This document shows positions 22,965 to 47,372 of a DNA stretch of 64,000 nt, piece after piece. A program made the translations under genes and the position numbers. The notes under the pieces are model-generated. The model did not search any database. It was not told where the DNA came from and worked only from the letters and a program-made list of their open reading frames with translations. Numbering within the stretch: the stretch's first letter is position 1; the number at the start of each line of letters is the position of its first letter. Source of the DNA: Elusimicrobiota bacterium (GTDB taxonomy: Bacteria > Elusimicrobiota > Elusimicrobia > Elusimicrobiales > UBA9959). Location: the NCBI GenBank assembly GCA_016234365.1, contig JACRER010000079.1, positions 82,233 to 146,232 of the forward strand, given 5' to 3'.

Positions 22965-23561
22965 TTGAACGACCAGGTACAGTTAGCGGCCCTGCTGGGC
23001 AACCCGGGGCCGGGTTACGAAAAGACCCGCCACAATATCGGCTTTATGCTGGCCGACCTTGCGGCTTCCCGCCTTGCGCCCGGCAAAAGCTGGCGCGACT
23101 GGAAAGGCCTCGGCCTTTACGTCGAGTTCGAACTGGCCGGCCTGCGCCGGTTCATCCTCAAACCCCAGACCTACATGAACCTCTCCGGCCAGGCGGTGCA
23201 GAGCCTGGGCGGTTTCTACAAGGTGCCGCCGTCGGCCATCCTTACGGGCTACGACGACCTGGCCCTGCCCTTCGGCAAGCTGCGCCTGCGCAAGGACGGC
23301 TCCGCCGGTTCGCACAACGGCATGGCCTCGGTCATTTCGGCCGTGGGGCCGGCGTGCCCGCGGCTGCGCATGGGCATTGGCCCGCGCCCGGCCCACATAG
23401 AGGGCAAGGATTTCGTGCTTTCCAAATTCTCCAAGGAAGAGGGGGGGCGGCTGCCCGAGTTCCTGGGCCTGGCCTGCGACGCGCTGGCGTCGGTGCTGCG
23501 CGATGGCGTAGTGACGGCCATGAACCGCTTTAACCATGACAACGATAAACCCGTACATTAA
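22965..23561 (+). CDS. pth: Peptidyl-tRNA hydrolase
   Basis: LGNPGPGYEKTRHNIGF, KPQTYMNLSG, GSHNG, RLRMGIG. Confidence 0.96.
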   Translation: MNDQVQLAALLGNPGPGYEKTRHNIGFMLADLAASRLAPGKSWRDWKGLGLYVEFELAGLRRFILKPQTYMNLSGQAVQSLGGFYKVPPSAILTGYDDLALPFGKLRLRKDGSAGSHNGMASVISAVGPACPRLRMGIGPRPAHIEGKDFVLSKFSKEEGGRLPEFLGLACDALASVLRDGVVTAMNRFNHDNDKPVH

Positions 23562-23766
23562 GGTATTCTTCGGCCTGCTGTTCATCCTGCTGGGGCTGGG
23601 CTACATCTACAGGCCCGACGCCATAGAGCGGGTGAACCGGCTTATAAAAGAGACGTTCCTCAACGACTCCTACGTGGCGCTGCACCGCAGGAACTGGGGC
23701 TTCCTGCTGCTGCTCTTGGGCGGGGTGCTGGTCTACATGGGTGCCAGCAGGGCGCTGGGCAAGTAG
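23536..23766 (+). CDS. Small two-TM membrane protein
   Basis: Two hydrophobic helices; overlaps the end of pth; host-like codon usage. Confidence 0.65.
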   Translation: MTTINPYIKVFFGLLFILLGLGYIYRPDAIERVNRLIKETFLNDSYVALHRRNWGFLLLLLGGVLVYMGASRALGK

Positions 23767-23863
23767 GCCTTTAGGCCCTTGGCTTTGGCGCGCGGTGAGG
23801 CTACACTATAGCGTGAGATTTCGGCGGCCCGGGGGGGCCGGAACATTCGGTGGTGGGGGGAAT

Positions 23864-24043
23864 ATGACCTGGGAAGAAATAGGTAAAAAATACGAGCAGG
23901 ATACCAAGCTGGCGAGGCCCGAGAAGAAGGCCCCGAAGCTGGCCAAGAACTGGGACAACCTCGTGAAGTCCACGGATAAACTGGTGTGGCTCTTCGCTAT
24001 GTCCAACGGCGGGCGGCCGCCGGCCAAGAACAGCGGCACCTGA
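23864..24043 (+). CDS. Small hypothetical protein (59 aa)
   Basis: G-rich RBS before ATG 23864; host-like codons; hairpin downstream. Confidence 0.55.
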   Translation: MTWEEIGKKYEQDTKLARPEKKAPKLAKNWDNLVKSTDKLVWLFAMSNGGRPPAKNSGT

Positions 24044-24054
24044 CGGATAAAAGA

Positions 24055-24096
24055 AAGACGCCGGCGCGGGCCCCACGGGGAGCCGCCGGCGTTCTT
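24055..24096. terminator. Hairpin between convergent genes
   Basis: aagacgccggcg...cgccggcgttctt inverted repeat. Confidence 0.55.
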
Positions 24097-24520
24097 ATTT
24101 GGCCAGGCCGTCCAGGGTGATCTCGGAACCTTTGCTGATGATCCACACGCCGTTATTCATTTGGCCGCGCAGGTCGCCGCGCTTTATGGCGCCAAGCTGG
24201 CCGTGCGTGTTGAGGGCCGCTTCAAGGTAGACGCGGCGCGTAAGCAGGTCCGGCATGATGAGGCTGGAGGGGCCGATATCGAACCGCGCCGGGAATACCG
24301 GGTTGATGATCTTCTTCACGGCCACGGGGACGCCGCCGTCGTTGCGTACCACCACGAAGAGCATGCTGTTGGACCCCGGCAGGGCCGTAAGCAGGTCCGG
24401 CCGGATACTTACCGTGCCCGAGGCGCGGAACAGGTACTTCAGGGTAGCCGGGTAGGCGAACTTCCAGCCCGTGAACAGCGCGGCGGCGAGCGCGGCCAGT
24501 ACCAGCAGTTTCCTTAGCAT
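24095..24520 (-). CDS. Membrane-anchored protein with CcmI/CycH C-terminal Ig-like domain resemblance
   Basis: N-terminal TM; GTVSI...LFVVVR..GGVPVAVKKI...FPARF pattern. Confidence 0.55.
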   Translation of the reverse strand: MLRKLLVLAALAAALFTGWKFAYPATLKYLFRASGTVSIRPDLLTALPGSNSMLFVVVRNDGGVPVAVKKIINPVFPARFDIGPSSLIMPDLLTRRVYLEAALNTHGQLGAIKRGDLRGQMNNGVWIISKGSEITLDGLAK

Positions 24521-24669
24521 TCCATAATTCTATAAAAGTTCCCGTTCCCGGCCAAAACGGCCGGGCGCCCGCCTATGACACATTCTGTTAATAATCATTT
24601 AACATTCCTTTTATTGCCTTATACGGGCCCGTATATTAGACTTGATATAGAGCGGTAAAAGGACTAACT

Positions 24670-27600
24670 ATGGCGAACGAATACGGCGAACTCGAACAGC
24701 TTGTAAACGACGTGACCAGCCTGGACACGGCGCGCATGACGCTGCGCTGGGCCCTGGAACGGCTCAACACGATAGAAAAAGAGAAGGCCGACCTCAAGAA
24801 GAACCTGGCCCTTGCCGAGGAAACTTCCAAGAAACTGCAGCTCAAGGATTCCTCGCTGCAGGACGCCTACACCGCCCGCTCCAAGACGCTCGAGGAAAAA
24901 GAGGATTTCTACACCAAGCTCGAGGCTACCATGTCGCTGTTGGGCGAGGGGAAGCTGGACATCCAGCAGCTGCTCAAGAAAGAGGCCAAGCTGGATTCCC
25001 TGCGCAAGAACCTGGAGAACGAATACCAGGAAAAATTCGACGACCTGGACCGCAACCAGCGCTCCGTGATAGAGCGCTGGAACGCCCGCCTGCTGGAAGT
25101 GGAGAGCCAGTATGCCGGCCGCCTGACGGACGCCCAGAAAAAATACGATTCGCTCCGCTCCGAGCTGGAGACCGAGTACCAGGCCCGGATGACGTCCCTG
25201 CAGACCTCGTTCAAGAGCCGCGAAAAAGAGCTGGGCTCCCGGATAGAGGCGCTGGAAGGCAGCGTGAAGAACGCCGAAGACAAGGTGGAAGCCCGCCGCA
25301 AAGCCCTGGAATCCGAATACCTGCTCAAGCAGCGCGAGATAGAGGAGAATTACCGCAAGGTAAAGGCTTCCCTCGAAGCCAATTTCGACGACAAACTTCG
25401 TGCCATGGATTCCGACCACATGGCGCAGGTGCGCTCGCTGGAAGCTTCCTGGCAGACCGAGCGCAACCGCCTGCTGGAAGAGCAGCGCGTGCGCGAAGAC
25501 CAGTTCGCCTCGGCGCAGACCCGCCTGGCCGAAGTGGAGAACCGCCTGGCCGCGCAGCAGGAGATGCACCACTCCGAACTGCTGAAGGTCATTACCGAGA
25601 AGGAGAACGCTTTCAGGGCGCAGGTTGCGGAACTGGAAAAGGAAAAGGCGCAGAAAGAAGCCACCGTCAAAGAACTTATCGTGAGGCTGGAGCAGAAGTC
25701 CACCGGCTGGGCCGCCGAGCGCGCCGCGCTGGAGGCCGAGTTCGGCCTGAAGCTGGCCGGTATAGAATCCGTCATGAACGAGCGGGTTTCTTCGCTGGCA
25801 AGCGCGCTTTCCGCCAAGGAGCAGGAACTGGAAGCCGTCGCAGAACGTCACCGCGCCGAACTGGTGGAACGGGTCCAGGCCGGCGAGGCCTCTTTCCGCG
25901 CCAGGCTGGAAACTTTCGAGGAGGAAAAGAGGTCCTATAATGAAACTATAAAGAATCTGGCCATCAGGCTGGAGGACGCCGCCCGCGCCGCGGCCATGGA
26001 GAAAGAGAATTTCCGCAGCGAGCTGGCCGACCTGTCCGCCAAGGCCGAAGCTAAGGCCGAGGACCGCAACGCCGTGGTGCGGGCCGATTACGAGGCGCGC
26101 AAAGCCGACCTGGAAAAGAATTTCGCTGCGCGCTACGAAGACAGGGTGCGCGCCCTTGAGGCCGAAAAGGCCCGCATGGCCGAAGCGCTGGCCGAGCGCG
26201 AAAAGCAGCTGGACGCGGCCTTTAAGGAAGCGCGCCAGCTGGATACCGCGCTGGCCGGAGTGCGCATGCGCGCGGCCGAAGAGAAGACGCTTTTGACCCG
26301 CGATTACGAGCGGGAGATGGTCTCGGCGATGAAGAACGCCGAGGACGCCGCCCGGGCCCGCGACGCCGAGCTGCGCGCGGAGTTAGAAGTGCTGCGCAAC
26401 GAACTGTCCGAAAAGGACCGCCTGCTGTCGCAGGAAAAGGGACGGCTGGTGGCCGAACTTTCCAAGGCGTCGCTGGACGCGCATAACCGCGGCGAGGAAC
26501 GCGCCGCCGCCGTGAGGTCAGAATACGAAGCCAAGCTCTCGTCGCTGGAAGCCTCGGTAGAGAACCGGATGGCGGAACTGAAGCAGACCATCGCGGCCAA
26601 AGAGGCGCTGCTGGAGGATTCCTTCAAGGCCCGCGAGGCCGCGGAAAAAACCTTGAAGGCCGCCTTCGAGGCCGAGAAGGCGGGGTGGACGCAAGAGCGT
26701 GCCCGCATGGCGGCCGATTTTGACAAGCGCCTGGCGGAAATAGAGGCTGGCCTGGTGGACAGGACCGCCGGGATACGCGCGGATTACGAACTGCGCAAGG
26801 CGGACCTGGAGAAGGATTTTGCGGCCCGGTATGGCGACAGGCTTAAGGCGCTGGAGGCCGAGAAGGCCCGCATGGCCGAAGCGCTGGCCGAGCGCGAGGG
26901 GCAGTTGGAAGCCTCTTTCAAGGAAGCGCAGGAACTGGACTCGGCGCTGGCCGGGCTGCGCATGCGCGCCGCCGAAGAGAAGACCATCCTGTCGCGCGAT
27001 TACGAGCGGGAAATGACCGCGGCGCTGAAGAACGCCGAGGACGCCGCCCGGGTGCGCGACGCCGGGTTGCGCTCTGACATAGAGGCGCTGCGCGGCGAAC
27101 TGGTAGAAAAGGACCGCCTGCTGTCGCAGGAAAAGGGCCGGCTGGTGGCCGAACTTTCCAAGGCGTCGCTGGACGCGCATAACCGCAGCGAGGAACGCTC
27201 CTCCGCGGTAAAAGCCGAGTACGAGGCCAGGCTGGCCTCCCTGGAGGCCGCCGCGGAGAGCCGCGAGGAGGAACTGCGCCAGGCCATAGCGGCGAAAGAG
27301 GCGCTGCTGGAACGGGCCCTTGCCGAGAGGGCCGCCGCCGAGGCCTCGGTCAGGTCTGAATTCGAACGCAAACGTTCGGCGCTGGAAGAGGCTCTGGCCG
27401 CCCGCGCCGCCACCCTGGAAGCGGATTACGCCTCGCACAAAGAGCGCCTGGCCGCCGAACTGGCCGCCCGGACCGACGCCGTGCAGGCCGAAGCCGCCGC
27501 CAAGGCGGAACTGGAGCGCGGCAACTGGGCCGCCGAGCGCTCGCGCATAGAGCGCGCGCTGGAGGAAACTTCCTCCAATTTCCGCGCCGCACAGAAGGAT

Positions 27601-28788
27601 ATAGCCGAACTGAACAAGGGGCTGCGCAAGGCCGAAGAATTCAACGCGCAGCGCGAAGCCGAACTCAGCCACGAGCTGATGGAGGCCAAGTCCAATTTCG
27701 ACAAGGAGCTGGCCTACCGCGTGAAGGACGCCGTTGGCATCCAGACCGCGCACCTGGTGGAGTCGCTGGAATCCTCCAAGGCGAAACAGGAAGAGCTTTA
27801 TAAACACCTCGAAGCCAAGGACGAGGCCATCCGCTCCATGCGGGCCGAAGCCGAGGAGAACCGCCGGATCTACGAGAACAAGATCCTGGACGCCAGCTCC
27901 GGCGCGCTGAAAGAGCGCCGCGAGGAACTGGAGCGCCACTACGCCGCCAAGTCCGCCGCGCTGGAAGAGGAGATGTCTTCCTTCCGCCGCATCATGGAGG
28001 CCGAGAACGAGGCGCTGCGCGCCGCTATGGAGCAGGCCCGCGAGGAAGTGCTGTCCGCCAATAAGCGCGCCGACGACACCTTCAACGACATGCTGAAGGC
28101 CTCCAAGGCCGTGCAGGAGGAGAAACTGGAGATCAACCGCCTGCGCACCGACGAATTCAACGCGGCCGTGACAGAGGCCGTGCGCAAGGCCACCGAGTCC
28201 ACCGCGCAGAAACTGCGCCACTCCGAGGCCGAACTGGTGCGCATCCAGGAAGTTAACCGCGACGAAGTCAACCTGCTGACCGAGGCCTTCAATAAGGAGA
28301 AGGACCGCATGCTCGAAGAGATAGTGCGCCGCGAGAACTACCTGGAATCCGCCGACCTGAAGATCCAGGAGCAGGAGCAGCAGATGGCGGCGCTGCGCCA
28401 GAACTCCTCGGTGGACCTGATGCGCCACGTGTCCGAGCAGGACAAGCGCTTCCGCGACATCGTTACCGCGGAGAAGGCCCGCTACGAGGCCCGCATAAAG
28501 CAGATGGAAGAGCTGCTGGCCGCCAAGGAACGCCTGCTGGCCGACAGCGAGCGCGTCTACCGGCAGAAACAGGTGGAACTGGACAGCCTGCACTCAGAAC
28601 TTAACGCCAGCGTCAGCCGCTTCAACGAGGACCTCTTCGCCCAGCGCCAGGCGCTCAGCGAGAAAGAAAAGAGCATCACGGACCTGCGCCTGAAGCTGGA
28701 GAAGGACTACGGCGCCAAGGCGGCGGACCTGGAGAAGATGAAGACCGAACTCGCCCACGCGATCATGGACTATAAGAACAGGAAATAA
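24670..28788 (+). CDS. Very long coiled-coil protein (1372 aa) with internal 232-aa duplication
   Basis: E/A/K/R/L-rich heptads throughout, no Pro seen, no Walker motifs, no signal peptide or TM. Confidence 0.85.
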   Translation: MANEYGELEQLVNDVTSLDTARMTLRWALERLNTIEKEKADLKKNLALAEETSKKLQLKDSSLQDAYTARSKTLEEKEDFYTKLEATMSLLGEGKLDIQQLLKKEAKLDSLRKNLENEYQEKFDDLDRNQRSVIERWNARLLEVESQYAGRLTDAQKKYDSLRSELETEYQARMTSLQTSFKSREKELGSRIEALEGSVKNAEDKVEARRKALESEYLLKQREIEENYRKVKASLEANFDDKLRAMDSDHMAQVRSLEASWQTERNRLLEEQRVREDQFASAQTRLAEVENRLAAQQEMHHSELLKVITEKENAFRAQVAELEKEKAQKEATVKELIVRLEQKSTGWAAERAALEAEFGLKLAGIESVMNERVSSLASALSAKEQELEAVAERHRAELVERVQAGEASFRARLETFEEEKRSYNETIKNLAIRLEDAARAAAMEKENFRSELADLSAKAEAKAEDRNAVVRADYEARKADLEKNFAARYEDRVRALEAEKARMAEALAEREKQLDAAFKEARQLDTALAGVRMRAAEEKTLLTRDYEREMVSAMKNAEDAARARDAELRAELEVLRNELSEKDRLLSQEKGRLVAELSKASLDAHNRGEERAAAVRSEYEAKLSSLEASVENRMAELKQTIAAKEALLEDSFKAREAAEKTLKAAFEAEKAGWTQERARMAADFDKRLAEIEAGLVDRTAGIRADYELRKADLEKDFAARYGDRLKALEAEKARMAEALAEREGQLEASFKEAQELDSALAGLRMRAAEEKTILSRDYEREMTAALKNAEDAARVRDAGLRSDIEALRGELVEKDRLLSQEKGRLVAELSKASLDAHNRSEERSSAVKAEYEARLASLEAAAESREEELRQAIAAKEALLERALAERAAAEASVRSEFERKRSALEEALAARAATLEADYASHKERLAAELAARTDAVQAEAAAKAELERGNWAAERSRIERALEETSSNFRAAQKDIAELNKGLRKAEEFNAQREAELSHELMEAKSNFDKELAYRVKDAVGIQTAHLVESLESSKAKQEELYKHLEAKDEAIRSMRAEAEENRRIYENKILDASSGALKERREELERHYAAKSAALEEEMSSFRRIMEAENEALRAAMEQAREEVLSANKRADDTFNDMLKASKAVQEEKLEINRLRTDEFNAAVTEAVRKATESTAQKLRHSEAELVRIQEVNRDEVNLLTEAFNKEKDRMLEEIVRRENYLESADLKIQEQEQQMAALRQNSSVDLMRHVSEQDKRFRDIVTAEKARYEARIKQMEELLAAKERLLADSERVYRQKQVELDSLHSELNASVSRFNEDLFAQRQALSEKEKSITDLRLKLEKDYGAKAADLEKMKTELAHAIMDYKNRK
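26077..27440 (+). repeat. Intragenic tandem duplication, period 696 nt
   Basis: ADYEARKADLEKNFAARY (gat at 26086) vs ADYELRKADLEKDFAARY (gat at 26782); KDRLLSQEKGRLVAELSKASLDAHNR identical in both copies. Confidence 0.85.
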
Positions 28789-28790
28789 TT

Positions 28791-29507
28791 ATGGAAAAAG
28801 AACGCGCCATACAATGCGTCCCGGTAGAACTGCTCGAACGGCTCAAGGCCCTCGGCGCCCGTCTCTGGGACGATAAGAACCCGGCTTCGGTGCACCTCAA
28901 CGCGATCCTGGAGGAGTTCGACTCCGACGTGCGGACCCTGGGGCATATAGTAAAGGAATACGAGACCGACTTCGAGGGCCGGCTGGCCATAAAGGAACGC
29001 GACCACGCCCGCAGCCAGGAACGCCTGCGCGCCGAGACCGACGCCGCCGCCGCCCGCCTGGGCAAGCTGCAGGTGGAGCACGCCGCCGCGCTGAAGAAGG
29101 TGGAAGAACTGAAATCCACGCTGGCCGCCCGCGAAGGCGAGCTGGCCGAACTGAAGTCCAAGACCATGGAGGACGGCAGCGAGCTGAACTCCAGGTACGT
29201 GACCAGGATGCAGGAACTTTACGACAAGGTCAACAAGAAGGAGCTGGAGATGCTGGCCCGCTGGGAAGAAAAGAACGGCGGCCTCGACGGCAAGATCCGC
29301 GAGGTCGAAACGGAGTTCGCCGCCAAGACCAAGCAGCTGGCGCTGCGCGAGAAGGCGCTGGCCGAGGACTTTAACGGCCGCAAAGCGGAGCTTATCAGGA
29401 CTTTCGACAAGATCCGCGCCGACCTGGAGGCCAGGGAGCGGGCGCTTTCGGAAAGGGAAGCTAAAAAAACTCCCAACGGCAAGCCTGCCTTTACCGAGGA
29501 AATATGA
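28791..29507 (+). CDS. Coiled-coil protein (238 aa)
   Basis: Short N-terminal head then heptad repeats; 2 bp after the previous stop. Confidence 0.8.
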   Translation: MEKERAIQCVPVELLERLKALGARLWDDKNPASVHLNAILEEFDSDVRTLGHIVKEYETDFEGRLAIKERDHARSQERLRAETDAAAARLGKLQVEHAAALKKVEELKSTLAAREGELAELKSKTMEDGSELNSRYVTRMQELYDKVNKKELEMLARWEEKNGGLDGKIREVETEFAAKTKQLALREKALAEDFNGRKAELIRTFDKIRADLEARERALSEREAKKTPNGKPAFTEEI

Positions 29508-30118
29508 GCGGAACCGAAGATCTGAAGAACCTTTTGGACCGGCTGAAGGACGAGGTGGGCCCCCTGCCGGAACCGCCGCAGCGCCGCGAGGCGCCGCCGC
29601 GGTCGGAAGTTCCCGCCGCCAGGGCGCTGCCCGCCGACGGCCAGGCGCCCAGGCGTCCGGACTATTTTCCGCGGTCCTACCGGGCCGAAGCGCCGCGCGC
29701 CCAGGCTCCCGGGCACGGCCAGCCCAACCTGGTCTGGAGCGAGAACAAAGAGACCATACTTTTCGGCATGCTGACGGCGCTGATAGCGGCGTTCGGCGGG
29801 ATCCTCTCCGGCCTGGACTACCTGGTGCTGATAGGCGGCGTGGTGTTCATGCTGTTCTCGTTCATGATGCTGTTGACGCTGTTCGGTTATTACCTTAATT
29901 CCCGCCGCAAGAGTGGAGCGCCAGACGGGCAGGGGCTGGCGGAGAAAGTGGAGGCGCTTTCGCGCAGGGTGGAGGCGCTCTCTTCCATGGCCGCCTCGGG
30001 AGGCGGGGTGGGCTACGCACCTTCGCAGGAGAAGGAACGCGAGCTGGAGCATAAAGTGGATGAGCTGCGCGTGCTGGTAAAGACGCTCTCTCGCGCGGTT
30101 GAGCAGCAGGACAGGTAA
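29504..30118 (+). CDS. Two-TM membrane protein with Pro-rich linker and C-terminal coiled coil
   Basis: ATGA overlap; TM hairpin ILFGMLTALIAAFGG...LLTLFGYY; LEHKVDELRVLVKTL. Confidence 0.8.
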   Translation: MSGTEDLKNLLDRLKDEVGPLPEPPQRREAPPRSEVPAARALPADGQAPRRPDYFPRSYRAEAPRAQAPGHGQPNLVWSENKETILFGMLTALIAAFGGILSGLDYLVLIGGVVFMLFSFMMLLTLFGYYLNSRRKSGAPDGQGLAEKVEALSRRVEALSSMAASGGGVGYAPSQEKERELEHKVDELRVLVKTLSRAVEQQDR

Positions 30119-30148
30119 AAACGCCCTAAATATATATATAATTACCCT

Positions 30149-30838
30149 ATGAAGATACTCTCCCTTGCGCTGTCAATTCTGACGCTCTTCGGTTCCGTGC
30201 CGGCCTTCAGCCTGGAGCTTACGCTGCCCGCCCCGGAAAAAGAATACTTCATAGAGGCCGGCGATATCATCAACGTCAACGTTTCCCCGGCGGACGAATT
30301 TTCCAAGGAAGTTACGGTGCAGCCGGACGGGACCATAGAGATCCCGCTGCTGGGGTCCCTTAAGGCCTCGGGACTGAAGGCCGACGACCTGGCCAAGCAG
30401 CTGACCGCCAAATTCTCCAAGTACGTGGCTAACCCCAGCATCACGATCAACGTGCGCAAGTTCGCCTCCAATAAGGTGGCGGTGATAGGGCAGATAACCA
30501 GCCCCGGTTACTACGAGTACCGCGAGGGTATGCGCCTGCTGGACCTGGTGGCGCAGGCTTCCGGCCCGCAGGATTACGCCCGGTCGGCCAAGGTGCGCAT
30601 CTACCGCCGCACGCCCGGCCCCGACGGTAAATTCACCGAGCAGGTCATTAAGGCCGACCTCGGCGCGGTGCTGGACGGCAAAATGGACAAGAACATCCAG
30701 CTGCTCAACGGGGACATAGTCTACATCCCGAAGAAACCTTTTTACAAGACCGCCAAGTGGATAACCGATAATTTCCTGCCGTGGGCCACGCTGTTCACCT
30801 TTGCGGTAACGGCGAGCATTGTGGCGAGGAAGAACTGA
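30149..30838 (+). CDS. wza: Polysaccharide export OPX/Wza-family protein
   Basis: YFIEAGDII, VQPDGTIEIPLLG, SLBB (VIGQITSPG), LLNGDIVYIP, C-terminal amphipathic helix. Confidence 0.85.
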   Translation: MKILSLALSILTLFGSVPAFSLELTLPAPEKEYFIEAGDIINVNVSPADEFSKEVTVQPDGTIEIPLLGSLKASGLKADDLAKQLTAKFSKYVANPSITINVRKFASNKVAVIGQITSPGYYEYREGMRLLDLVAQASGPQDYARSAKVRIYRRTPGPDGKFTEQVIKADLGAVLDGKMDKNIQLLNGDIVYIPKKPFYKTAKWITDNFLPWATLFTFAVTASIVARKN

Positions 30839-30840
30839 GC

Positions 30841-32697
30841 ATGGACGCACAGGAACTTACACTCTACGATTACTGGCGCATAGTCAACAGGCGCAAGTGG
30901 ATGGCGCTGATGGTCTTTGCCGTCACGGTCTTTTCCACGATGTTCTATACGCGCCTGCAGCCCACGGTTTACCGCAGCCAGGCCCTCATCCAGATAAAGC
31001 CCCCGGCCTCCTACAGCCGCATCCCCGGTTCCGAGATAAACGATTTCGATCCCTGGAGCGCGGTGGCCACCGAACTGAAGGTGATAACCTCCTCGGAGAT
31101 CTCCGAGCGCGCGGCGGCCAAGCTCGGCCTGCCCGCCGGGCCCTCCTCCACCGCCCGGATAGCCGGTTCCTTTAAGGTGGAGCGCCTGTCGGATTCCAAC
31201 CTGATCTCCCTTTCCGCGTTCAGTTCCGACCCGGGCCGCGCGGCCGACATGGCTTCCGCCGTTATCGACGCCTACCGCGACTACGACCTGGAACAGAAGA
31301 GCCGCCAGGCCCGCAAGACGCTGGAGGACATCTCCGCCCGCAAGAACGAGGTGGAGGACAACCTGCGCACCCTGGAAAAACAGAAACAGACTTTTATAGA
31401 GCGTAACCCCAAGACCGGCCTGGGTTCGGCGCTCGCCAACCAGCTGGCCGACCTGGAGATAAAGAAACGCGAGCTGCTGGAGAAGTACACCCCCAACCAT
31501 CCCGACGTGCTGAGCCTGGAGCAGCGCATAGACGTGGTGCAGCAGAAGCTGGAGGAGATCCCCGCGCAGGAAGTGGAGCTGGCCCGCATCAGCCGCGAAG
31601 TGCGCATGCAAGAGGAACTCTACACCACGCTGAATAAGCAGTACGAGGAGGCCAAGCTGGGCGTCTCCTCCATGGTCTCTTTCGTAAGCGTGGTGAACCG
31701 CCCCATCCCCGAGACCGCGCCCATTTCTCCCAACAGCCGCCTGAATATGATGGTGGGCGCCGTGCTTGGCCTGTTCCTTGCCGTGGTGCTGGTGTTCCTG
31801 CTGGAGAACCTTGACGTTTCCATCTCCACCATCGAGGACATCGAGAATTTCATAAAGCTGCCGGTGCTGGGCATTATCCCCAACATCTTGAGCGAGAAGC
31901 CGCTGGACAACTGGCTGACCAATGTCTTCAAGAAAGAGCGCTACACGGTGGACGCGTTCCGCAGCGTCCTGATAGTCAACCGCAAGTATTCCTCCAGCGT
32001 CATAGAGGCGTACCACACGCTGCGTACCAACATCATGTCCAACCTCAAGACCAAGGAAAGCGTTTCCCTGGTCATCAGCTCCGCCGGGGCCGCCGAGGGC
32101 AAGACGCTCACCGCCGTTAATTTCGCCCTGGCCAGCGCCCATTCCGGCCTGCGCACCCTTCTTATAGATGCCGACCTCAGGCGCCCCGCCATTAACCAGA
32201 TCTTTGGCACCCGCAGGGAACCTGGCCTCTCCGACGTGCTGGCCGGCAAGGCCGACTGGCGCGACGCCGTGCTGGAGAGCGCCGATTTCATTATGGGCGG
32301 CCTGGACTTCGACCAGCTCATGCGCTTTCCCGGAATAGAGAACCTGAAGGTGCTCAACTGCGGCACGCAGACCGGTAACGTCGTGGACCTGCTGGATTCC
32401 GCCAACTGGAAAGAGATCATGGGCGAACTCAAGAGCGAGTTCGACATGATAATCTTCGACGCGCCCCCGGTGCTGCTGTTCGTGGATTCCGTGATGATAG
32501 CCAAGCACGCCTCCGACGGCGTGGTGCTGGTCTACAAGGCCGGCAAGATAGCCCGCGGCGCGCTGAAGCGCGCCAAGGACCAGATAGGCGGCGCCGCCAA
32601 GATGCTGGGCGTGGTGCTCAACGGCGTACGCGCCTCCGAAATGGGGCCGCAGTACGGCTACTACTACTACGACTACAAGAAGTACGCGCGGCGCTGA
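30841..32697 (+). CDS. wzc: Polysaccharide co-polymerase / BY-kinase (Wzc)
   Basis: Wzz-like N-terminus, YTPNHPDV, Walker A AEGKT, DADLRRP, FDAPP, C-terminal Tyr cluster YGYYYYDYKKY; ATG at 30841. Confidence 0.93.
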   Translation: MDAQELTLYDYWRIVNRRKWMALMVFAVTVFSTMFYTRLQPTVYRSQALIQIKPPASYSRIPGSEINDFDPWSAVATELKVITSSEISERAAAKLGLPAGPSSTARIAGSFKVERLSDSNLISLSAFSSDPGRAADMASAVIDAYRDYDLEQKSRQARKTLEDISARKNEVEDNLRTLEKQKQTFIERNPKTGLGSALANQLADLEIKKRELLEKYTPNHPDVLSLEQRIDVVQQKLEEIPAQEVELARISREVRMQEELYTTLNKQYEEAKLGVSSMVSFVSVVNRPIPETAPISPNSRLNMMVGAVLGLFLAVVLVFLLENLDVSISTIEDIENFIKLPVLGIIPNILSEKPLDNWLTNVFKKERYTVDAFRSVLIVNRKYSSSVIEAYHTLRTNIMSNLKTKESVSLVISSAGAAEGKTLTAVNFALASAHSGLRTLLIDADLRRPAINQIFGTRREPGLSDVLAGKADWRDAVLESADFIMGGLDFDQLMRFPGIENLKVLNCGTQTGNVVDLLDSANWKEIMGELKSEFDMIIFDAPPVLLFVDSVMIAKHASDGVVLVYKAGKIARGALKRAKDQIGGAAKMLGVVLNGVRASEMGPQYGYYYYDYKKYARR

Positions 32698-32736: not shown

Positions 32737-34125
32737 ATGCCGATAATCTTCCTCCTAATTTCCGCTGTTGCGGCCGTAGCCCTGGGATTTCTGGCCGCCA
32801 CCTCTTCTCCCCAGTTTATAATGGGGGCGACCGCTTCCCTGCTGGTTTTCCTGTTCGCTTTCTTCTCTCCCAAACTGAGCCTCGCCCTGATGGTGGTTTC
32901 CATGCTGTTTTCCCCGGAGATAGGTTTCGGCGCACTTAACAGCCAGCGCTCGGTGGTGGTGCGCTATGACGACATCCTGCTGGTGGTGATCTTCTTCTCC
33001 TGGCTGGCCCGCTCGGCTATCCGCAAAGACACGGCCTTTGTGACCAATACGCCGGTGCAGAAGCCCATAATCCTTTACACCTCCCTGTGCGTCCTGTCCA
33101 CCATGCTGGGCGTGCTGCGCGGTGATATCCGATTTGAGGTTTCAGTTTTTTATCTGATGAAGTATGTGGAGTATTTCCTTCTTTATTTCATGACCGTCAA
33201 CGTGCTGGAGTCCAAAGAGGAAATAGCCAGGTACCTGCGCTACGCCTTCTTCGTGCTGCTGGCCGTAACGGTGTATGCTTATTTCTACTATTTCAGCTCC
33301 GGGTCCGGCGCCAGGGCCAGCGCCCCTTTCGAGGCGCCTTTGGGTAAGCCTCAGGAATCAGAACCGGCCTCCCTCGGCGGGTATTACCTGCTGGCCATGG
33401 GCGTGCTGCTCGCGCTGTTCGCTGAGGGGGGGGGGCGCCAGCTTGCTTACGCGCTGGGGACGCTGGCTTTTGTTTTTCCGGCCTTCCTGCTTACCTTCTC
33501 GCGCGCCTCTTACATCGGCTTTGCCCTCATGGCGCTCGCCCTCGTCATTAAGACTAACAAGCGGCGCCTGGCCTTGCTGGCTATGGTCATTGTCGGGCTC
33601 GGCGCCCTGTTCGCCACCCGGGGACTTTCCGAGAAAGTGCGTGAACGTGTGGAGATGACCTATAGCGGTCAGTATGCCACGCACGATGTCAGATTTTTGG
33701 GTATTGAATTCCGGCTGGAGGAATCCGCTTACATACGCTATGCTTCCCTGAGTGAAGCCTTTACAAAATGGCTTCCTCAACACCCGGTGCTGGGCCGCGG
33801 AGTTACGGGCGTGGGTCTGGGCGACACGCAATACACGTTGCTGATAGGCGAGCTGGGCATGGTCGGTTTCTTCTCTTTTTTCTGGATGCTTTACAGCATC
33901 TATTCGGCCGCTAAGGACGTCTATGAGGATTATGAGGAGCCTTGGATCAAGGCGGTGGCGCTGGGGCTGATCATCAGTCTGATAGGCCTGCTGGGGCAGG
34001 CAATAGGCGTTAACACCTTTATCATTGTGCGCATCATGGAGCCGTTCTGGTTCCTGACCGCCGTCATTATGAAACTTTACGTGCTAAGGCGAAATCCTAA
34101 GGAAATAGCCGCGGAGCAGGCCTAA
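32737..34125 (+). CDS. O-antigen ligase/Wzy-family polymerase
   Basis: About 12 TMs, LLTFSRASY, HPVLGRG, LIGELGMVG. Confidence 0.8.
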   Translation: MPIIFLLISAVAAVALGFLAATSSPQFIMGATASLLVFLFAFFSPKLSLALMVVSMLFSPEIGFGALNSQRSVVVRYDDILLVVIFFSWLARSAIRKDTAFVTNTPVQKPIILYTSLCVLSTMLGVLRGDIRFEVSVFYLMKYVEYFLLYFMTVNVLESKEEIARYLRYAFFVLLAVTVYAYFYYFSSGSGARASAPFEAPLGKPQESEPASLGGYYLLAMGVLLALFAEGGGRQLAYALGTLAFVFPAFLLTFSRASYIGFALMALALVIKTNKRRLALLAMVIVGLGALFATRGLSEKVRERVEMTYSGQYATHDVRFLGIEFRLEESAYIRYASLSEAFTKWLPQHPVLGRGVTGVGLGDTQYTLLIGELGMVGFFSFFWMLYSIYSAAKDVYEDYEEPWIKAVALGLIISLIGLLGQAIGVNTFIIVRIMEPFWFLTAVIMKLYVLRRNPKEIAAEQA

Positions 34126-35568
34126 ATGCCGGACGGTGACAGTCGGCTTTCAGTTTACGGCCTTCTTTCTATTCTTCTTTTCGGACTCTCGCTGCGGCTG
34201 CTTTTTTTCAGCGGCATGACGGGCTATGACGAGTTCCATTACGCGCACATAGCCCGCAACTTCGCCCTCGGCAATTTCTCGCTTCCCGAAGTTTCCGGCT
34301 ATTACGGGTTTAGGTACCTCGTTACCATCCCCGCCGCTTTTTTTACTTCCGTCTTCGGCCTGAACGCCGCGGCGCTGAGCCTCTGGCCGCTCGCCTGTTC
34401 CCTCGGTTCTATCTCTGTGGTTTTTCTGCTCGGCAGGCTCCTGTCCGGAGAGCGGGCCGGGCTGATAGCAGCCTTGCTCTACGCCTGCCTGCCGGGCAGC
34501 GTCATTTCCGGGACCATGCTTTACCCGGATGAGACCGTGACTTTCTTCACCGGGTTGTCCGCGCTGTTCTTCCTGAGGGGGGAAAAACAAAAGTCGGGAG
34601 GCGGGATATTATTCTTCCTGCTTGCCGGTCTGTTCTGCGGCCTGGGTTACCTTGCCCGCATAAACGCGCTGCTTATAATTCTTTTTTTCGCGGCGTACGC
34701 TGCTGTCAGTGGCTGGAAAACAGGGAGACTGGCCTTCTTCGCCGGTCTGGCTCTTGCCCTGCTTCCGGAAGCCGCTTTTAATTTCGCCAAAACCGGGGAT
34801 GTTCTCTTCTCCTGGAACGCCCAGCAGTTGCGGTTGGCCGCGGATGCCGTTAATTTTTCCACCAGTCTTCTGGTGTACCCGAGGGGGATGCTGGGTTTGG
34901 ACCTCTACGGCCTGGGCCTTTTCGGTTTTTTCTTTCACCTTTTCCTGATCTGCATGGGAGCCTATCTTATGGGCCGCAGGCCGGCCGGCAGCGGGCCGCT
35001 GCTGCTCTGGTTCGCCTGCGTTTTTCTGTACCTGGAATTCGGCCCGTCGCACTTGTCCCCTGGCGGCTATGTGCCCGCGCATAAGCAGTTGCGCTTCCTT
35101 TCCATGGCCGCCATGCCGGCCGTTCTTTTTTCGGCGCTTTACCTGGCTGAAATGAGGCGTGCCGCCGCCGCCTGCGCGGCGATGTTCATGGTTTTTACCT
35201 CTGCCTTCGGGGCGGCAAAGATATCGGAATATCACGCTTTCCATGCAGAGCCCTATGAACGGGCCTTTGCTTACATGAAAGACACCTCTCCGTTGGCAGT
35301 ATCGGTCCCCGACGAGGATTGGCGCGCACGCCTCAATTTCTATTATCGATCCCCCCTGTCTTTGCCCTATTATCCTTCCGGCGGAGCGGGCGGAGTACGG
35401 CTAGCCGGAGAACCGCGGCCAGCCAATGCGCATCCGCCGTTCTGGAGCGTTGCTGCGGGAGAGGCCAAAGCTTCTGAAGCCCAGGGAGCAGGGCCGGCAA
35501 AAACCGTGGCTTTGGGCGGAGGAGTATTTCTTAAGCGTTATTCAGCGAGCCCGACACCGCGTTTTTGA
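34126..35568 (+). CDS. GT-C fold (GT39/ArnT-like) membrane glycosyltransferase
   Basis: N-terminal GYDE..Y motif, multi-TM, GLGYLAR, RFL motif. Confidence 0.75.
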   Translation: MPDGDSRLSVYGLLSILLFGLSLRLLFFSGMTGYDEFHYAHIARNFALGNFSLPEVSGYYGFRYLVTIPAAFFTSVFGLNAAALSLWPLACSLGSISVVFLLGRLLSGERAGLIAALLYACLPGSVISGTMLYPDETVTFFTGLSALFFLRGEKQKSGGGILFFLLAGLFCGLGYLARINALLIILFFAAYAAVSGWKTGRLAFFAGLALALLPEAAFNFAKTGDVLFSWNAQQLRLAADAVNFSTSLLVYPRGMLGLDLYGLGLFGFFFHLFLICMGAYLMGRRPAGSGPLLLWFACVFLYLEFGPSHLSPGGYVPAHKQLRFLSMAAMPAVLFSALYLAEMRRAAAACAAMFMVFTSAFGAAKISEYHAFHAEPYERAFAYMKDTSPLAVSVPDEDWRARLNFYYRSPLSLPYYPSGGAGGVRLAGEPRPANAHPPFWSVAAGEAKASEAQGAGPAKTVALGGGVFLKRYSASPTPRF

Positions 35569-38531: not shown

Positions 38532-39461
38532 ATGATTATGCCGGATCCACGACCAGGTCCCGCGGGCGGGAATTGTTTCCTGTGCAGGAGCGCGGACTTT
38601 TTGCCTGTTTACCCCACGGTCCCTTATGGCCTGATAAAGTGCTCCTCCTGCGGTATGGTCAGGATAGCGCCCATGCCGGACCCGGCGGTCAGCCTGGAAA
38701 TAAACGAGGCCGTATATTCCGCGGCTGAATATAAAGAACGCTATTTCAAAGACAGACATAATTTCGCCGCTTGGGCGCGGGAGAAACTGCGGTTGATAGA
38801 GCGTTGCAGGCCGGGGAAGGGCCGTATCCTCGACGTGGGCTGCAGTTACGGAGTGTTCATAGAAGAGGCCGCGAAGCTGGGTTGGGATGCCTGCGGCTGC
38901 GAGTTGAATCCTGTTACCGGCAATTATTCCCGCGACCGTTTCGGCGGGAAAGTGCACGCCGGAGACCTGGCTACGGCGCCTTTCCATCTTGCCTCGTTCG
39001 ACGTTATAACCTTGTGGGACGTGATAGAGCATCAGCCCGACCCGGCGGCCTTCCTGAAGACCGCGGCCAAATACCTGAAAGACGACGGGCTGATCTTCCT
39101 GCAGGTCCCGAATTTCGACAGTTATATCTCCGGGCTTAAAAAAGACGGCTGGGATTGGCTTACGCCCGGTGATCACAAATACTTCTTCACTCCGGCTACG
39201 CTTGTCCGTACCGCGGCCGCCGCCGGCTTTTCGCTGATATACCTGAAAACCTGGGAGCCGACGAGGTATTTTATAGACTCCCTCATCGGACTTGGTGAAA
39301 GGAGCGGGCCTGTTGCGGATATATACAGGGCGACTGTAGTGCGGTTTGTCCGGCTTTTCCTCTTTTTCCTGTTCCTGCCTTTCCAGAGCCGGCTGCGGGA
39401 CGCGGATAGAGGCGCTTTACTGGTATGCGGGTTCTCCAGGAAGGAGGGCACCGATGCTTAA
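38532..39461 (+). CDS. Class I SAM-dependent methyltransferase with N-terminal Zn ribbon
   Basis: CFLC...CSSCG, ILDVGCSYG, WDVIEH. Confidence 0.9.
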   Translation: MIMPDPRPGPAGGNCFLCRSADFLPVYPTVPYGLIKCSSCGMVRIAPMPDPAVSLEINEAVYSAAEYKERYFKDRHNFAAWAREKLRLIERCRPGKGRILDVGCSYGVFIEEAAKLGWDACGCELNPVTGNYSRDRFGGKVHAGDLATAPFHLASFDVITLWDVIEHQPDPAAFLKTAAKYLKDDGLIFLQVPNFDSYISGLKKDGWDWLTPGDHKYFFTPATLVRTAAAAGFSLIYLKTWEPTRYFIDSLIGLGERSGPVADIYRATVVRFVRLFLFFLFLPFQSRLRDADRGALLVCGFSRKEGTDA

Positions 39462-43422: not shown

Positions 43423-43443
43423 CGGCCGCAGCGGAAACTGAGA

Positions 43444-44625: not shown

Positions 44626-44626
44626 A

Positions 44627-47295: not shown

Positions 47296-47372
47296 CGGCC
47301 TCCGCGCCTTTACCCCTTCCCCGGCTTTATCCTATTATAGATGTGCCGGTTACTATCTAAAGGGGTTTGGAT

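What the first reader, a model, noticed from the sequence alone, without database searches (positions are those of the whole stretch)
24670..30118. Three-gene coiled-coil plus membrane-anchor operon feeding into wza-wzc: candidate cytoskeletal scaffold
Seen: a 1372-aa essentially pure coiled coil with a short distinctive head (LDTARMTLRWALERL), a 238-aa coiled coil and a two-TM protein with a coiled tail are tightly coupled (2-bp gap, ATGA overlap), have core-genome codon usage, lack ATPase motifs and end 30 bp before wza. Known: crescentin, FilP/Scy and DivIVA are ATP-independent coiled-coil scaffolds. Inference: an undescribed membrane-tethered filament or polar organiser, possibly positioning polysaccharide export.
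Basis: partly seen in the sequence, partly recalled or inferred. Interest (0 to 1): 0.7.

Follow-up and report, generated by a model that had tools for sequence, protein, structure and literature searches.

The report
Coiled-coil triad heading polysaccharide exporter
Three tightly packed genes known only from Elusimicrobia encode a very long helical rod, a short rod and a small membrane anchor placed directly in front of the cell's only sugar-polymer export machine, which points to an undescribed internal scaffold whose function is still untested.

Summary
ORFs of 1372, 238 and 204 aa lie at the stated coordinates with the stated junctions. They match no known family. The two rods are predicted all-helical, and the third protein has a two-helix membrane hairpin.

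The triad is real and conserved. All 24 other genomes searched in the genus hold the long rod. 16 of 18 fetched loci hold the whole block rod, short rod, anchor, wza, wzc, wzy. These include two genomes of a second family with 30-48% identity.

The rod's N-terminal motif (DTARMTLRWALER) defines an unnamed family confined to one class of Elusimicrobiota: 166 hits among 1.84 billion representatives. In a third family its members are fused to a membrane helix plus beta-propeller and lie directly after a different wza-wzc pair.

The link is not obligatory. Wza occurs in many genomes without the triad, and the family occurs where no Wza was found.

Best reading (about 0.45): a membrane-tethered cytoplasmic coiled-coil scaffold that serves the Wzx/Wzy-type exporter. 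Filament formation, binding and co-transcription are untested.

The scan met this triad before in two other genomes (e1-2429995, e1-3202068), with the same reading.

The parts
24521..24669 (+). Divergent intergenic region before the rod gene. It holds a block of about 75 nt that is nearly invariant in 10 loci of the genus, with a TATATT box at 24632-24637 and an AAAGGA ribosome site about 8 nt before the ATG.
   Evidence: Alignment of 10 upstream regions; sequence read. That it is a promoter is inferred.
24586..24604 (.). Perfect palindrome TGTTAA-N7-TTAACA inside the conserved block; a candidate operator for a dimeric regulator.
   Evidence: One match in the window against 0 in 100 shuffles. 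It is the only exact match in the whole genome. Its arms are invariant or nearly so in the 10-locus alignment.
24670..28788 (+). Long rod protein, 1372 aa: conserved head, length-variable helical middle, conserved tail. About 200 nm long if it is one continuous coiled coil.
24670..25866 (+). Conserved head (residues 1-399) with the family signature VNDVTSLDTARMTLRWALERL at residues 12-32.
   Evidence: 17-sequence alignment with 74% mean column identity. A profile of it finds 166 proteins in 1.84 billion representatives.
25999..27390 (+). Tandem duplication of a 232-aa (696-nt) unit, residues 444-675 and 676-907.
   Evidence: Direct DNA repeat with spacing 696 and 79% identity over 300 nt. Protein alignment gives 61.5% identity. 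Extra copies of this stretch in longer homologues appear (G019, G014).
27886..28785 (+). C-terminal 300 aa, with the conserved tail RLKLEKEY..ELEKMK.EL.RAI.EYK.RK at the very end.
   Evidence: 20-sequence alignment.
28791..29507 (+). Short rod protein, 238 aa: a small conserved head (L..L...LW...NP..V.L.A.LEEF) followed by one helix of about 190 residues.
   Evidence: A look-alike gene follows the rod gene in other families.
29504..30118 (+). Membrane anchor, 204 aa: conserved N-terminal helix, Pro/Arg-rich linker, hairpin of two TM helices (nt 29756-29812 and 29822-29881), then two conserved C-terminal helices.
   Evidence: That both ends face the cytoplasm is inferred from the 3-residue loop (104-106) and the RRK after TM2.
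30127..30144 (+). Conserved AT-rich element TAAATATATATATAATTA, ending 4 nt before the wza ATG. It contains TATAAT at 30137-30142. No Shine-Dalgarno sequence lies in the spacer.
   Evidence: Alignment of 9 spacers; sequence. Its role (internal promoter for a leaderless mRNA, or AU-rich ribosome site) is inferred.
30149..30838 (+). Wza-type outer-membrane polysaccharide export protein, 229 aa (Poly_export + SLBB). It is the only one found in the genome.
30841..32697 (+). Wzc-type co-polymerase and BY tyrosine autokinase (Wzz, GNVR, P-loop, C-terminal YGYYYYDYKKY). It is the only one found in the genome. The ORF opens at GTG 30781; the likely start is ATG 30841.
32737..34125 (+). Wzy-like polymerase (O-antigen ligase family, below the Pfam cut-off). 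It is the last member of the conserved six-gene block.
34126..35568 (+). PMT_2-type membrane glycosyltransferase. It follows on the same strand but is conserved in only some loci.

Best explanation
The three genes encode a cytoplasmic, nucleotide-independent coiled-coil assembly attached to the inner membrane.

Anatomy:
- A rod of about 200 nm whose length changes through tandem 232-aa repeats, and which keeps a conserved head and a conserved tail.
- A second rod of about 35 nm.
- A hairpin membrane protein with both helical ends in the cytoplasm, which serves as the tether.

In this family the assembly acts as an accessory scaffold for the genome's single Wzx/Wzy-dependent exporter (Wza-Wzc-Wzy). 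It would position, cluster or space the machines, or hold cytoplasmic partners at the Wzc kinase ring.

Shown: gene structure, helical and heptad character, membrane hairpin, restriction to one class, conserved order, and recurrent adjacency to wza-wzc.

Inferred: cytoplasmic location, mutual binding, polymerisation through the head and tail, and any effect on export.
For: 1. All-helical, heptad-biased proteins without a signal peptide, TM segment or Walker A motif, followed by a two-TM hairpin protein.

2. Co-occurrence among 41 genomes (G000 and 40 relatives). The rod is found in 24/24 other genomes of the genus, 2/2 of family f3 and 0/14 of f2. The short rod is found in 20/24, 2/2 and 0/14. 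The anchor is found in 22/24, 2/2 and 0/14.

3. 16 of 18 fetched loci carry the whole block rod, short rod, anchor, wza, wzc, wzy. These include L017 and L018 of f3, where identities are only 30-48%. In L017 the upstream glmU-prs-L25-pth genes are not found. 4 of 8 loci from other genera of the own family carry the block as well; 3 of the other 4 end at a contig edge.

4. A second, different arrangement exists in family f6. There wza-wzc (about 25% identical to the window's pair) is directly followed on the same strand by a head-family rod fused to a TM helix and a beta-propeller, and then by a single-TM CBM48 protein. This holds in 3 of 4 genomes; the fourth has the same neighbours but no wza-wzc, and no Wza was found anywhere in it.

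5. The fused form shows that rods of this family are membrane-anchored at their C-terminal end. The propeller of a separate third gene in L076 matches the fused propeller at E 6e-11.

6. G000 has exactly one wza and one wzc, both in this operon.

7. The triad, wza and wzc share housekeeping-like GC3 (0.82-0.85), whereas wzy and the glycosyltransferases lie at 0.66-0.76. The triad therefore belongs to the conserved core of the locus.

8. Both the head and the tail of the rod are conserved. From recall, conserved rod ends are what intermediate-filament proteins use for lengthwise assembly.
Against: 1. The link is not obligatory. Wza was found in 146 of 251 genomes of the phylum, including 50/81 of f2 and 18/60 of f15, where no head-family gene was found. 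In f9 the head family is in 3/4 genomes and Wza in 0/4.

2. Most f8 genomes hold both genes, but on different contigs or far apart. Only G253 has them within 10 kb, which could be chance.

3. Inside the own family, G110 keeps the rod and an elongated short rod without an anchor or wza in the 12 kb downstream. In G194 the rod and wza lie on different contigs. G013 keeps a 1117-aa rod followed by a response regulator. G202 has the rod but no Wza was found.

4. A conserved TATAAT-containing element 6 nt before the wza ATG may be an internal promoter, so co-transcription is not assured.

5. There is no experimental or structural evidence for binding or polymerisation.
Confidence: 0.45

Rival explanations
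1. A general cytoskeletal element of this class of Elusimicrobia, acting like an intermediate filament in cell shape, polarity or division. It sits beside envelope genes (glmU upstream, wza-wzc downstream) for co-regulation only, without physical coupling to the exporter.
For: Head-family genes occur without any nearby wza in f7, f9 and most f8 loci, next to genes such as tyrS, methylmalonyl-CoA mutase or priA. They also occur in genomes where no Wza was found (f9 0/4, G116, G202). The rod persists where the anchor and wza are not adjacent (G013, G110). Several paralogues per genome exist in f6 and f8. Conserved head and tail with a length-variable rod fits a self-assembling filament.
Against: The six-gene order is held down to 30-48% identity in f3. 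An independent arrangement with a different wza-wzc pair exists in f6, and immediate same-strand adjacency there is hard to get by chance. In f6 the following gene has a carbohydrate-binding CBM48 domain.
Confidence: 0.3
2. A regulatory adaptor or substrate of the Wzc tyrosine kinase. Phosphorylation of conserved tyrosines in the rods would switch their assembly, or would relay the kinase state to other processes. The role would be signalling rather than mechanical scaffolding.
For: Wzc here is a complete BY-kinase with Walker motifs and a C-terminal tyrosine cluster. The rod head has invariant tyrosines Y5, Y119, Y148 and Y159. Recurring E-Y-x-x-K/R motifs are seen by eye. The genes are adjacent to the kinase gene in two arrangements.
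Against: Tyrosine makes up only 2.0% of the rod. No phospho-site evidence exists. The family also occurs in genomes where no Wza was found; Wzc itself was not searched there. This reading is compatible with the main explanation rather than exclusive of it.
Confidence: 0.1
3. An extracytoplasmic rod, either a periplasmic spacer or a surface fibre, that is exported and anchored through the small membrane protein.
For: Long coiled-coil spacers and fibres exist in other bacteria (recalled: Thermotoga Omp-alpha, streptococcal M protein). The genes lie beside envelope genes.
Against: Neither rod has a signal peptide or hydrophobic segment; the hydropathy maxima are 0.68 and 0.66. In the fused relatives the rod precedes the single TM helix and the propeller follows it, which places rod and propeller on opposite sides of the membrane.
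Confidence: 0.03
4. A diverged SMC/SbcC/Rad50-type protein, or a defence-system (Zorya- or Lamassu-like) coiled-coil protein.
For: Some source annotations of homologues read 'chromosome segregation ATPase' or 'Zn-ribbon protein'. There are weak PADLOC hits to the ZorA tail (E 1e-4, 19 bits) and to LmuB (E 0.004).
Against: There is no Walker A motif and no Pfam, NCBIfam or PDB hit to any ATPase head, hinge or zinc hook. The PADLOC hits cover only coiled-coil stretches. No MotA-like or nuclease partner gene is present.
Confidence: 0.02

Closest known systems
FilP and Scy of Streptomyces (intermediate-filament-like coiled-coil proteins; PMC2680258 and PMC6599971, search listing and abstract starts only)
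   Same: Long, nucleotide-independent coiled-coil rods without enzymatic domains. A very long rod and a shorter one are encoded side by side. Rod length is set by repeats. The proposed role, organising envelope-building machinery at the membrane, is also similar.
   Different: No sequence relationship was detected: no Pfam or NCBIfam hit and none among PDB sequences. The present proteins have their own conserved head and tail motifs. A dedicated two-TM anchor gene is present. The genetic partner is a Wza-Wzc-Wzy exporter, not the polarisome. Self-assembly is untested.
Crescentin of Caulobacter (PMC10873595, search listing and abstract start only)
   Same: A membrane-associated, ATP-independent coiled-coil protein that forms a cytoplasmic structure along the inner membrane.
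   Different: Crescentin is a single protein of about 430 aa (length recalled), with no operon partner acting as anchor and no link to polysaccharide export. No sequence similarity was found.
BcsH (CcpAx)/BcsD 'cortical belt' of Komagataeibacter/Gluconacetobacter (PMC7811197 and PMC9757748, search listing and abstract starts only)
   Same: The clearest precedent for the proposed function: a cytoplasmic cytoskeleton-like scaffold, encoded within the secretion operon, that arranges polysaccharide secretion machines.
   Different: That system is synthase-dependent cellulose secretion rather than Wzx/Wzy-dependent export. Its proteins are unrelated and are not giant coiled coils. It occurs in a different phylum.
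Cyanobacterial coiled-coil-rich proteins (10.1101/674176, also held as PMC7002697; search listing and abstract start only)
   Same: Lineage-specific coiled-coil-rich proteins found by genome survey and shown to form filaments. They illustrate that such families are usually clade-restricted.
   Different: No homology. No conserved triad with a membrane anchor, and no conserved position beside wza-wzc.

Membership tests
Bacterial intermediate-filament-like / coiled-coil-rich cytoskeletal proteins (a functional class, not a homology family) | Long rod of coiled-coil segments with no enzymatic or nucleotide-binding domain | tested here: met
   AF2 predicts long helices. Heptad contrast is far above shuffles. 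There is no Walker A motif and no Pfam or NCBIfam domain.
Bacterial intermediate-filament-like / coiled-coil-rich cytoskeletal proteins (a functional class, not a homology family) | Spontaneous, cofactor-independent self-assembly into filaments or networks | not testable with these tools
   This needs purified protein with EM, or expression with tags. Conserved head and tail motifs are only suggestive.
Crescentin / FilP / Scy as homologous families | Detectable sequence similarity to these proteins | tested here: not met
   No PDB chain matched at E <= 0.01 with the whole protein. None matched at E <= 0.05 with the head profile; the best hit was E 0.061. Pfam and NCBIfam gave nothing. No direct pairwise comparison was run, because I held none of those sequences.
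SMC / SbcC / Rad50 / MukB | N- and C-terminal ABC-type ATPase half-sites (Walker A, Walker B, signature motif) flanking the coiled coil | tested here: not met
   No Walker A motif. No SMC_N, AAA or hinge hit in Pfam or NCBIfam. No PDB hit.
DivIVA / GpsB | DivIVA-type N-terminal membrane-binding domain (Pfam DivIVA) | tested here: not met
   No Pfam hit at E <= 0.01 for any of the three proteins.
Unnamed 'DTARM-head' coiled-coil family of class-level Elusimicrobia (defined here) | N-terminal motif [LI]-D-T-A-R-M-[TA]-L-R-W-A-L-E-R followed by a long helical rod | tested here: met
   The motif is invariant in 17 aligned sequences and is seen at the N-termini of distant hits. The family occurs in 48 of 251 genomes of the phylum, all of them in the window's class.
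Wzx/Wzy-dependent polysaccharide export system (as an accessory component) | Conserved genomic coupling to wza, wzc and wzy | tested here: met
   16 of 18 loci of the genus and f3, and 4 of 8 loci of other genera, hold the block. A second arrangement exists in f6. The coupling is not universal for the wider family.
Wzx/Wzy-dependent polysaccharide export system (as an accessory component) | Physical interaction with, or functional requirement for, Wzc/Wza/Wzy | not testable with these tools
Wza-Wzc systems exist without the triad in f2, so the triad cannot be a universal requirement.

The most novel reading that the evidence does not exclude
The triad is a new, phylum-restricted membrane cytoskeleton. 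The long rods polymerise head to tail beneath the inner membrane and physically order the Wza-Wzc-Wzy machines. Rod length, tuned between species by gain and loss of 232-aa repeats (about 740 to 2970 aa), would set the spacing or reach of the export sites. It would be the Wzx/Wzy-pathway counterpart of the cellulose 'cortical belt', with the Wzc tyrosine kinase possibly switching its assembly.
Probability: 0.2. Interest if true: 0.75.

Novelty: new variant of a known kind. Interest (0 to 1): 0.5.

Why it matters
How bacteria place and space Wzx/Wzy-type capsule and exopolysaccharide exporters in the envelope is largely unknown. No cytoplasmic scaffold for this pathway turned up in my searches. 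These cover only the held library, and I saw listings and abstract starts only.

A conserved rod, rod and anchor triad wired to the exporter in an uncultured phylum would give a concrete, cloneable candidate. It would also add a new family to the small set of bacterial intermediate-filament-like systems. The natural series of rod lengths, and the split and fused anchor forms, provide ready-made comparisons for experiments.

If the triad proves to be a general cytoskeletal element instead, it would still be the first cytoskeletal family specific to Elusimicrobia.

Tried and rejected
- Complex prediction of the rod C-terminal 300 aa, the short rod and the anchor (anchor as the scored partner), with alignments A4, A3 and A2: no verdict. 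The score was 0.00 and controls were not run. It says nothing either way.
- RNA runs for 28000-31500: none was listed, so co-transcription across 30118-30149 stays open.
- ESM Atlas with residues 1-240 of the rod: the best scores, 0.88-0.90 with 130-140 shared features, are at chance level.
- Foldseek of the head model against the PDB: 0 matches at E <= 10, as expected for extended helices.
- PDB sequence searches with the head profile, whole rod, short rod and anchor: only generic coiled-coil or designed-helix hits, with best E-values of 0.0018 (anchor profile) and 0.0041 (short-rod profile).
- PHROGs: nothing.
- PADLOC: only weak coil-on-coil hits to the ZorA tail and LmuB. I rejected these as membership.
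- Longer, fused forms of the anchor: none among 7999 scored candidates. The tool itself calls this weak evidence.
- My impression that the anchor's N-terminal helix resembles that of the TM-propeller gene in L076: hhalign does not support it (probability 0.2).
- Paralogy of the short rod with parts of the long rod: hhalign gives probability 80-86% and E about 1e-5. Coiled-coil composition can produce this, so I leave it open.
- The palindrome as a regulon marker: there is no second exact site in the genome, and the single 1-mismatch site is no more than the control gives.
- Rfam over 23500-30300: nothing relevant.
- The G253 (f8) adjacency to wza-wzc was considered as a third independent link. 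I set it aside because one such case among about 13 f8 genomes that hold both genes could be chance.
Full report
**The observation**

The junctions are a 2-base gap, an ATGA overlap, and a 30-base spacer before the wza ATG at 30149.

The long protein has no Pro or Cys and is rich in A, E, L, R and K. It has no hydrophobic segment; its hydropathy maximum is 0.68. AF2 of residues 1-399 on a 17-sequence alignment gives three long helices (H2-92, H98-234, H241-398) with mean pLDDT 83 and pTM 0.24, which indicates an extended shape. The 238-aa protein is predicted as a short helix (11-27), a turn at DKNP, and one helix from 32 to 224, with pLDDT 87.6.

A crude heptad measure is far above shuffled sequence for both rods: 0.41 against 0.25 +/- 0.011, and 0.46 against 0.25 +/- 0.03. 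It is not above shuffles for glmU or wzc.

The 204-aa protein has two hydrophobic segments, 85-103 and 107-126, joined by 3 residues (104-106). Its other parts are a conserved N-terminal helix, a Pro/Arg-rich linker and two conserved C-terminal helices. None of the three has a Walker A motif, and their codon usage matches the neighbouring housekeeping genes.

**Known families**

Pfam, NCBIfam and PHROGs give nothing for any of the three proteins at E <= 0.01, apart from sub-threshold noise. PADLOC gives only weak matches of coiled-coil stretches to the ZorA tail and LmuB. PDB sequence searches with the whole rod and with profiles of the head, the short rod and the anchor return nothing, or only generic helical bundles. 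Foldseek finds no match for the head model, and the ESM Atlas gives chance-level scores.

**Organism and range**

Source names of the closest homologues place the window in Elusimicrobiales.

A profile of the 400-aa head was searched against 1.84 billion representative proteins. It finds only 166 proteins at E <= 0.001, which is very few for a coiled-coil query.

The distant hits share the N-terminal signature [LI]DTARM[TA]LRWALER, followed by a helical rod of 390 to over 1300 aa. Five of the ten I looked up carry an organism label, and all five are Elusimicrobia or Elusimicrobiota.

Among 251 genomes of the phylum that are at least 85% complete, 48 have a match, and all 48 are in the window's class. 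By family the counts are f1 19/20, f6 4/4, f7 1/1, f8 17/20, f9 3/4, f11 2/3 and f12 1/1. The family was not found in f2 (0/81, small genomes of 1.2-1.9 Mb) or f15 (0/60), nor in any other family sampled.

The anchor family has 127 hits of 128-228 aa. All named ones are Elusimicrobia, and no longer fused form was found.

**Co-occurrence and gene order**

One search covered 41 genomes: G000 and 40 relatives. Without G000, the rod is found in 24/24 other genomes of the genus, 2/2 of f3 and 0/14 of f2. The short rod is found in 20/24, 2/2 and 0/14. The anchor is found in 22/24, 2/2 and 0/14, and two of those 22 are weak partial hits.

I fetched 18 loci and mapped the window's genes on them. Sixteen carry the full block rod, short rod, anchor, wza, wzc, wzy:
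- L022 has an extra 821-aa short-rod paralogue between the anchor and wza.
- L023 and L024 have an elongated short rod, in open frames of 629 and 646 aa.
- L023 is cut in the rod by a contig end.

The two exceptions are L020 and L025. L020 shows no wza in the 1.4 kb left before its contig end. L025 (G013) has a 1117-aa rod followed by a response regulator and a methyltransferase.

The block is kept in f3 (L017, L018) at only 44-48% (head), 32-34% (short rod), 30% (anchor), 46-50% (wza) and 57-59% (wzc) identity. In L017 none of the upstream genes of the genus (glmU, prs, L25, pth) is found in 6.9 kb. L018 ends at a contig edge, so its upstream side cannot be seen.

In other genera of the own family, 4 of 8 loci show the block (L057, L058, L062, L063). 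Three end at contig edges. One, L059 (G110), has the rod plus a 386-aa short rod and then unrelated genes. Coordinates agree: the rod and wza lie a few kb apart in G015, G227, G247, G012, G078, G084, G178, G233, G196 and G230. In G194 they are on different contigs. In G202 no Wza was found.

**A second, independent link to the exporter**

In family f6 (G204, G096, G166) the order is rpiB, HAD hydrolase, wza, wzc, and then a head-family protein of about 990-1080 aa by open frame. The wza and wzc there are only about 25% identical to the window's pair.

In library proteins with this architecture (P0094, P0098, P0099, P0100, P0116, P0126, P0161) the rod is followed by a Pro-rich linker, one TM helix and a beta-propeller-like domain. 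The next gene in f6 encodes a single-TM protein with a CBM48 carbohydrate-binding domain. Its score is 25.2 bits against a cut-off of 22.4 in L069, and just below the cut-off in the other two loci. A Kelch/FN3 protein of about 1750-1790 aa follows.

The fourth f6 genome, G116, has the same neighbours without wza-wzc, and no Wza was found anywhere in it.

In f8 locus L076 the order is head rod (499 aa), short-rod look-alike (286 aa), and a 383-aa protein with a TM segment and a propeller. That propeller matches the fused one at E 6e-11. So the anchor can be a separate gene or fused to the rod's C-terminus, which argues that the rods are cytoplasmic and tethered at their tail.

A short-rod look-alike, with head motif LW..D..AAV.LQA.IEEF, follows the rod gene in f9 and f8 as well (L065, L066, L067, L070, L076). 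The rod pair is therefore the conserved core of the wider family.

**Limits of the link**

Wza (PF02563) occurs in 146 of 251 genomes. These include 50/81 of f2 and 18/60 of f15, where the head family was not found. Wza was found in 0/4 of f9, where the head family is in 3/4.

Most f8 genomes hold both genes unlinked. Only G253 has a head-family gene inside an EPS locus, and that single case could be chance. Loci in f7, f8 and f9 show neighbours such as tyrS, methylmalonyl-CoA mutase, priA or histidine kinases.

The family is thus broader than polysaccharide export, and the exporter does not need it in general. In the window's own family and in f3 and f6, however, the coupling is strong.

**The window's locus**

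G000 is 96.5% complete and has one wza and one wzc, both here. Wzc has Walker motifs and the C-terminal cluster YGYYYYDYKKY; its likely start is ATG 30841, 2 bases after the wza stop. The triad, wza and wzc have GC3 of 0.82-0.85, like glmU and prs. The genes for wzy, the PMT-like transferase, the flippase and the glycosyltransferases lie at 0.66-0.76. This matches their lower conservation between species. The triad therefore belongs to the conserved core of a larger glycan region that runs to about 47 kb.

**Rod anatomy**

Residues 444-675 and 676-907 are a tandem duplication of a 232-aa unit. The DNA copies lie 696 nt apart and are 79% identical over 300 nt; the protein copies are 61.5% identical. 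Longer homologues match this stretch several times over (G019, G014). Homologues range from about 740 to 2970 aa.

Both ends of the rod are conserved: the 400-aa head and the tail RLKLEKEY..ELEKMK.EL.RAI.EYK.RK. Similar tails end the distant members (by eye). From recall, conserved rod ends with a variable middle are what intermediate-filament proteins use for lengthwise assembly, so I take this as a hint, not a test.

At 0.1485 nm per residue, a continuous coiled coil of 1372 aa would span about 200 nm, and the short rod about 35 nm.

**Regulatory signals**

The 149-nt region between the divergent Ig-like gene and the rod gene holds a block of about 75 nt that is nearly invariant in 10 loci of the genus. 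The block contains the palindrome TGTTAA-N7-TTAACA at 24586-24604, which is unique in the window and in the genome. It also contains a TATATT box. This fits a regulated promoter heading the triad.

The 30-nt spacer before wza carries the conserved element AAATATATATATAATTA. Its TATAAT ends 6 nt before the ATG, and there is no Shine-Dalgarno sequence. The element could be an internal promoter for a leaderless wza mRNA, or an AU-rich ribosome site. One transcript from 24670 to beyond wzy is therefore plausible but not shown. The scan found no + strand terminator-like site from the rod gene through wzc; the first + strand sites are weak ones (3 G-C pairs) at 30908, 32269, 32822 and 33453, and the first with 4 or more G-C pairs come at about 35077-35123. 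No RNA run was listed.

**Explanation and rivals**

I commit to a membrane-tethered cytoplasmic coiled-coil scaffold that, in this family, serves the Wza-Wzc-Wzy exporter (0.45). The main rival is a general cytoskeletal element that is only co-regulated with envelope genes (0.30). An extracytoplasmic rod (0.03) and an SMC-like or defence protein (0.02) are disfavoured by tests run here. The remaining 0.10 is unassigned.

**Comparison with what is known**

The closest known kinds are FilP/Scy and crescentin for the type of protein. For the proposed function, the closest is the BcsH/BcsD cortical belt of cellulose-secreting acetic acid bacteria. For all papers cited I saw only search listings and abstract starts. 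No homology to any of these was detected.

My literature searches found no description of this family or of a coiled-coil scaffold for Wzx/Wzy systems. They cover only the held library, so this is not proof of absence.

Two earlier follow-ups of this scan, on other genomes (e1-2429995 and e1-3202068), reached the same reading. I looked them up after my own analysis and confirmed their main claims here.

- the class-wide head family with split and fused anchors;
- the independent f6 arrangement with a CBM48 neighbour;
- the counts showing that the link is accessory rather than obligatory;
- the 232-aa repeat as the source of length variation;
- the conserved tail;
- the two conserved non-coding elements.

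Noticed in passing
window 24586-24604 (within 24521-24669): Perfect palindrome TGTTAA-N7-TTAACA inside a block of about 75 nt upstream of the rod gene that is nearly invariant across 10 loci of the genus. It is the only exact copy in the genome. A likely operator, with no regulator identified.
   Followed up: partly
window 30127-30144: Conserved AAATATATATATAATTA just before the wza ATG in 9 loci. Its TATAAT ends 6 nt before the start codon and there is no Shine-Dalgarno sequence. Possibly a leaderless internal transcript for wza, or an AU-rich ribosome site.
   Followed up: partly
window 30149-30838: The Wza homologue is only 229 aa (Poly_export plus one SLBB domain). It is too short to carry an outer-membrane-spanning C-terminal domain and resembles the 'Class-3 OPX' type named in the abstract of PMC12819527. 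No partner beta-barrel was looked for.
   Followed up: no
window 24670-47295: GC3 splits the locus. The triad, wza and wzc are at 0.82-0.85, like housekeeping genes. The genes for wzy, the PMT-like transferase, the flippase and two glycosyltransferases tested are at 0.66-0.76. This suggests a conserved export core next to a more exchangeable, serotype-like part.
   Followed up: partly
window 48257-62170: One ORF of 4637 aa with RHS repeats and bacterial Ig-like domains (Big_13, Big_7). It follows a response-regulator gene at 47367-48083.
   Followed up: no
window 38532-47295: Downstream glycan genes: two methyltransferases, a radical SAM/SPASM enzyme, four GT1/GT4 glycosyltransferases, and an asparagine-synthase-like protein fused to a GT1 piece.
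   Followed up: no
window 23741-24043 (+) and 24095-24520 (-): A small conserved ORF (its likely product is about 59 aa from ATG 23865) and a 141-aa protein with an Ig_CycH-like domain and a hydrophobic N-terminus. The second gene is transcribed divergently from the rod gene. In the own-family loci whose upstream side was fetched, the Ig_CycH-like gene precedes the rod gene in 23 of 24 (L063 is the miss). The small ORF was found in 19 of those 24: not in L012, L058, L061, L063 or L025. Neither was found in L017 of f3.
   Followed up: partly
L068 3840-7757, L069 11984-16025, L071 12614-16078: In family f6 the head-family protein (open frames of about 940-1080 aa) is followed by a single-TM protein with a CBM48 carbohydrate-binding domain and then by a Kelch/FN3 protein of 1746-1791 aa. 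Library proteins with this architecture are fused to a TM helix and a beta-propeller. The propeller has no Pfam match.
   Followed up: partly
L022 6136-8601: One genome of the genus (G007) has an extra 821-aa protein with the short rod's head, inserted between the anchor gene and wza. In G009 and G012 the short rod itself is elongated (614-aa ORF in G009; open frames 646 and 629 aa). So the short rod varies in length as well.
   Followed up: partly
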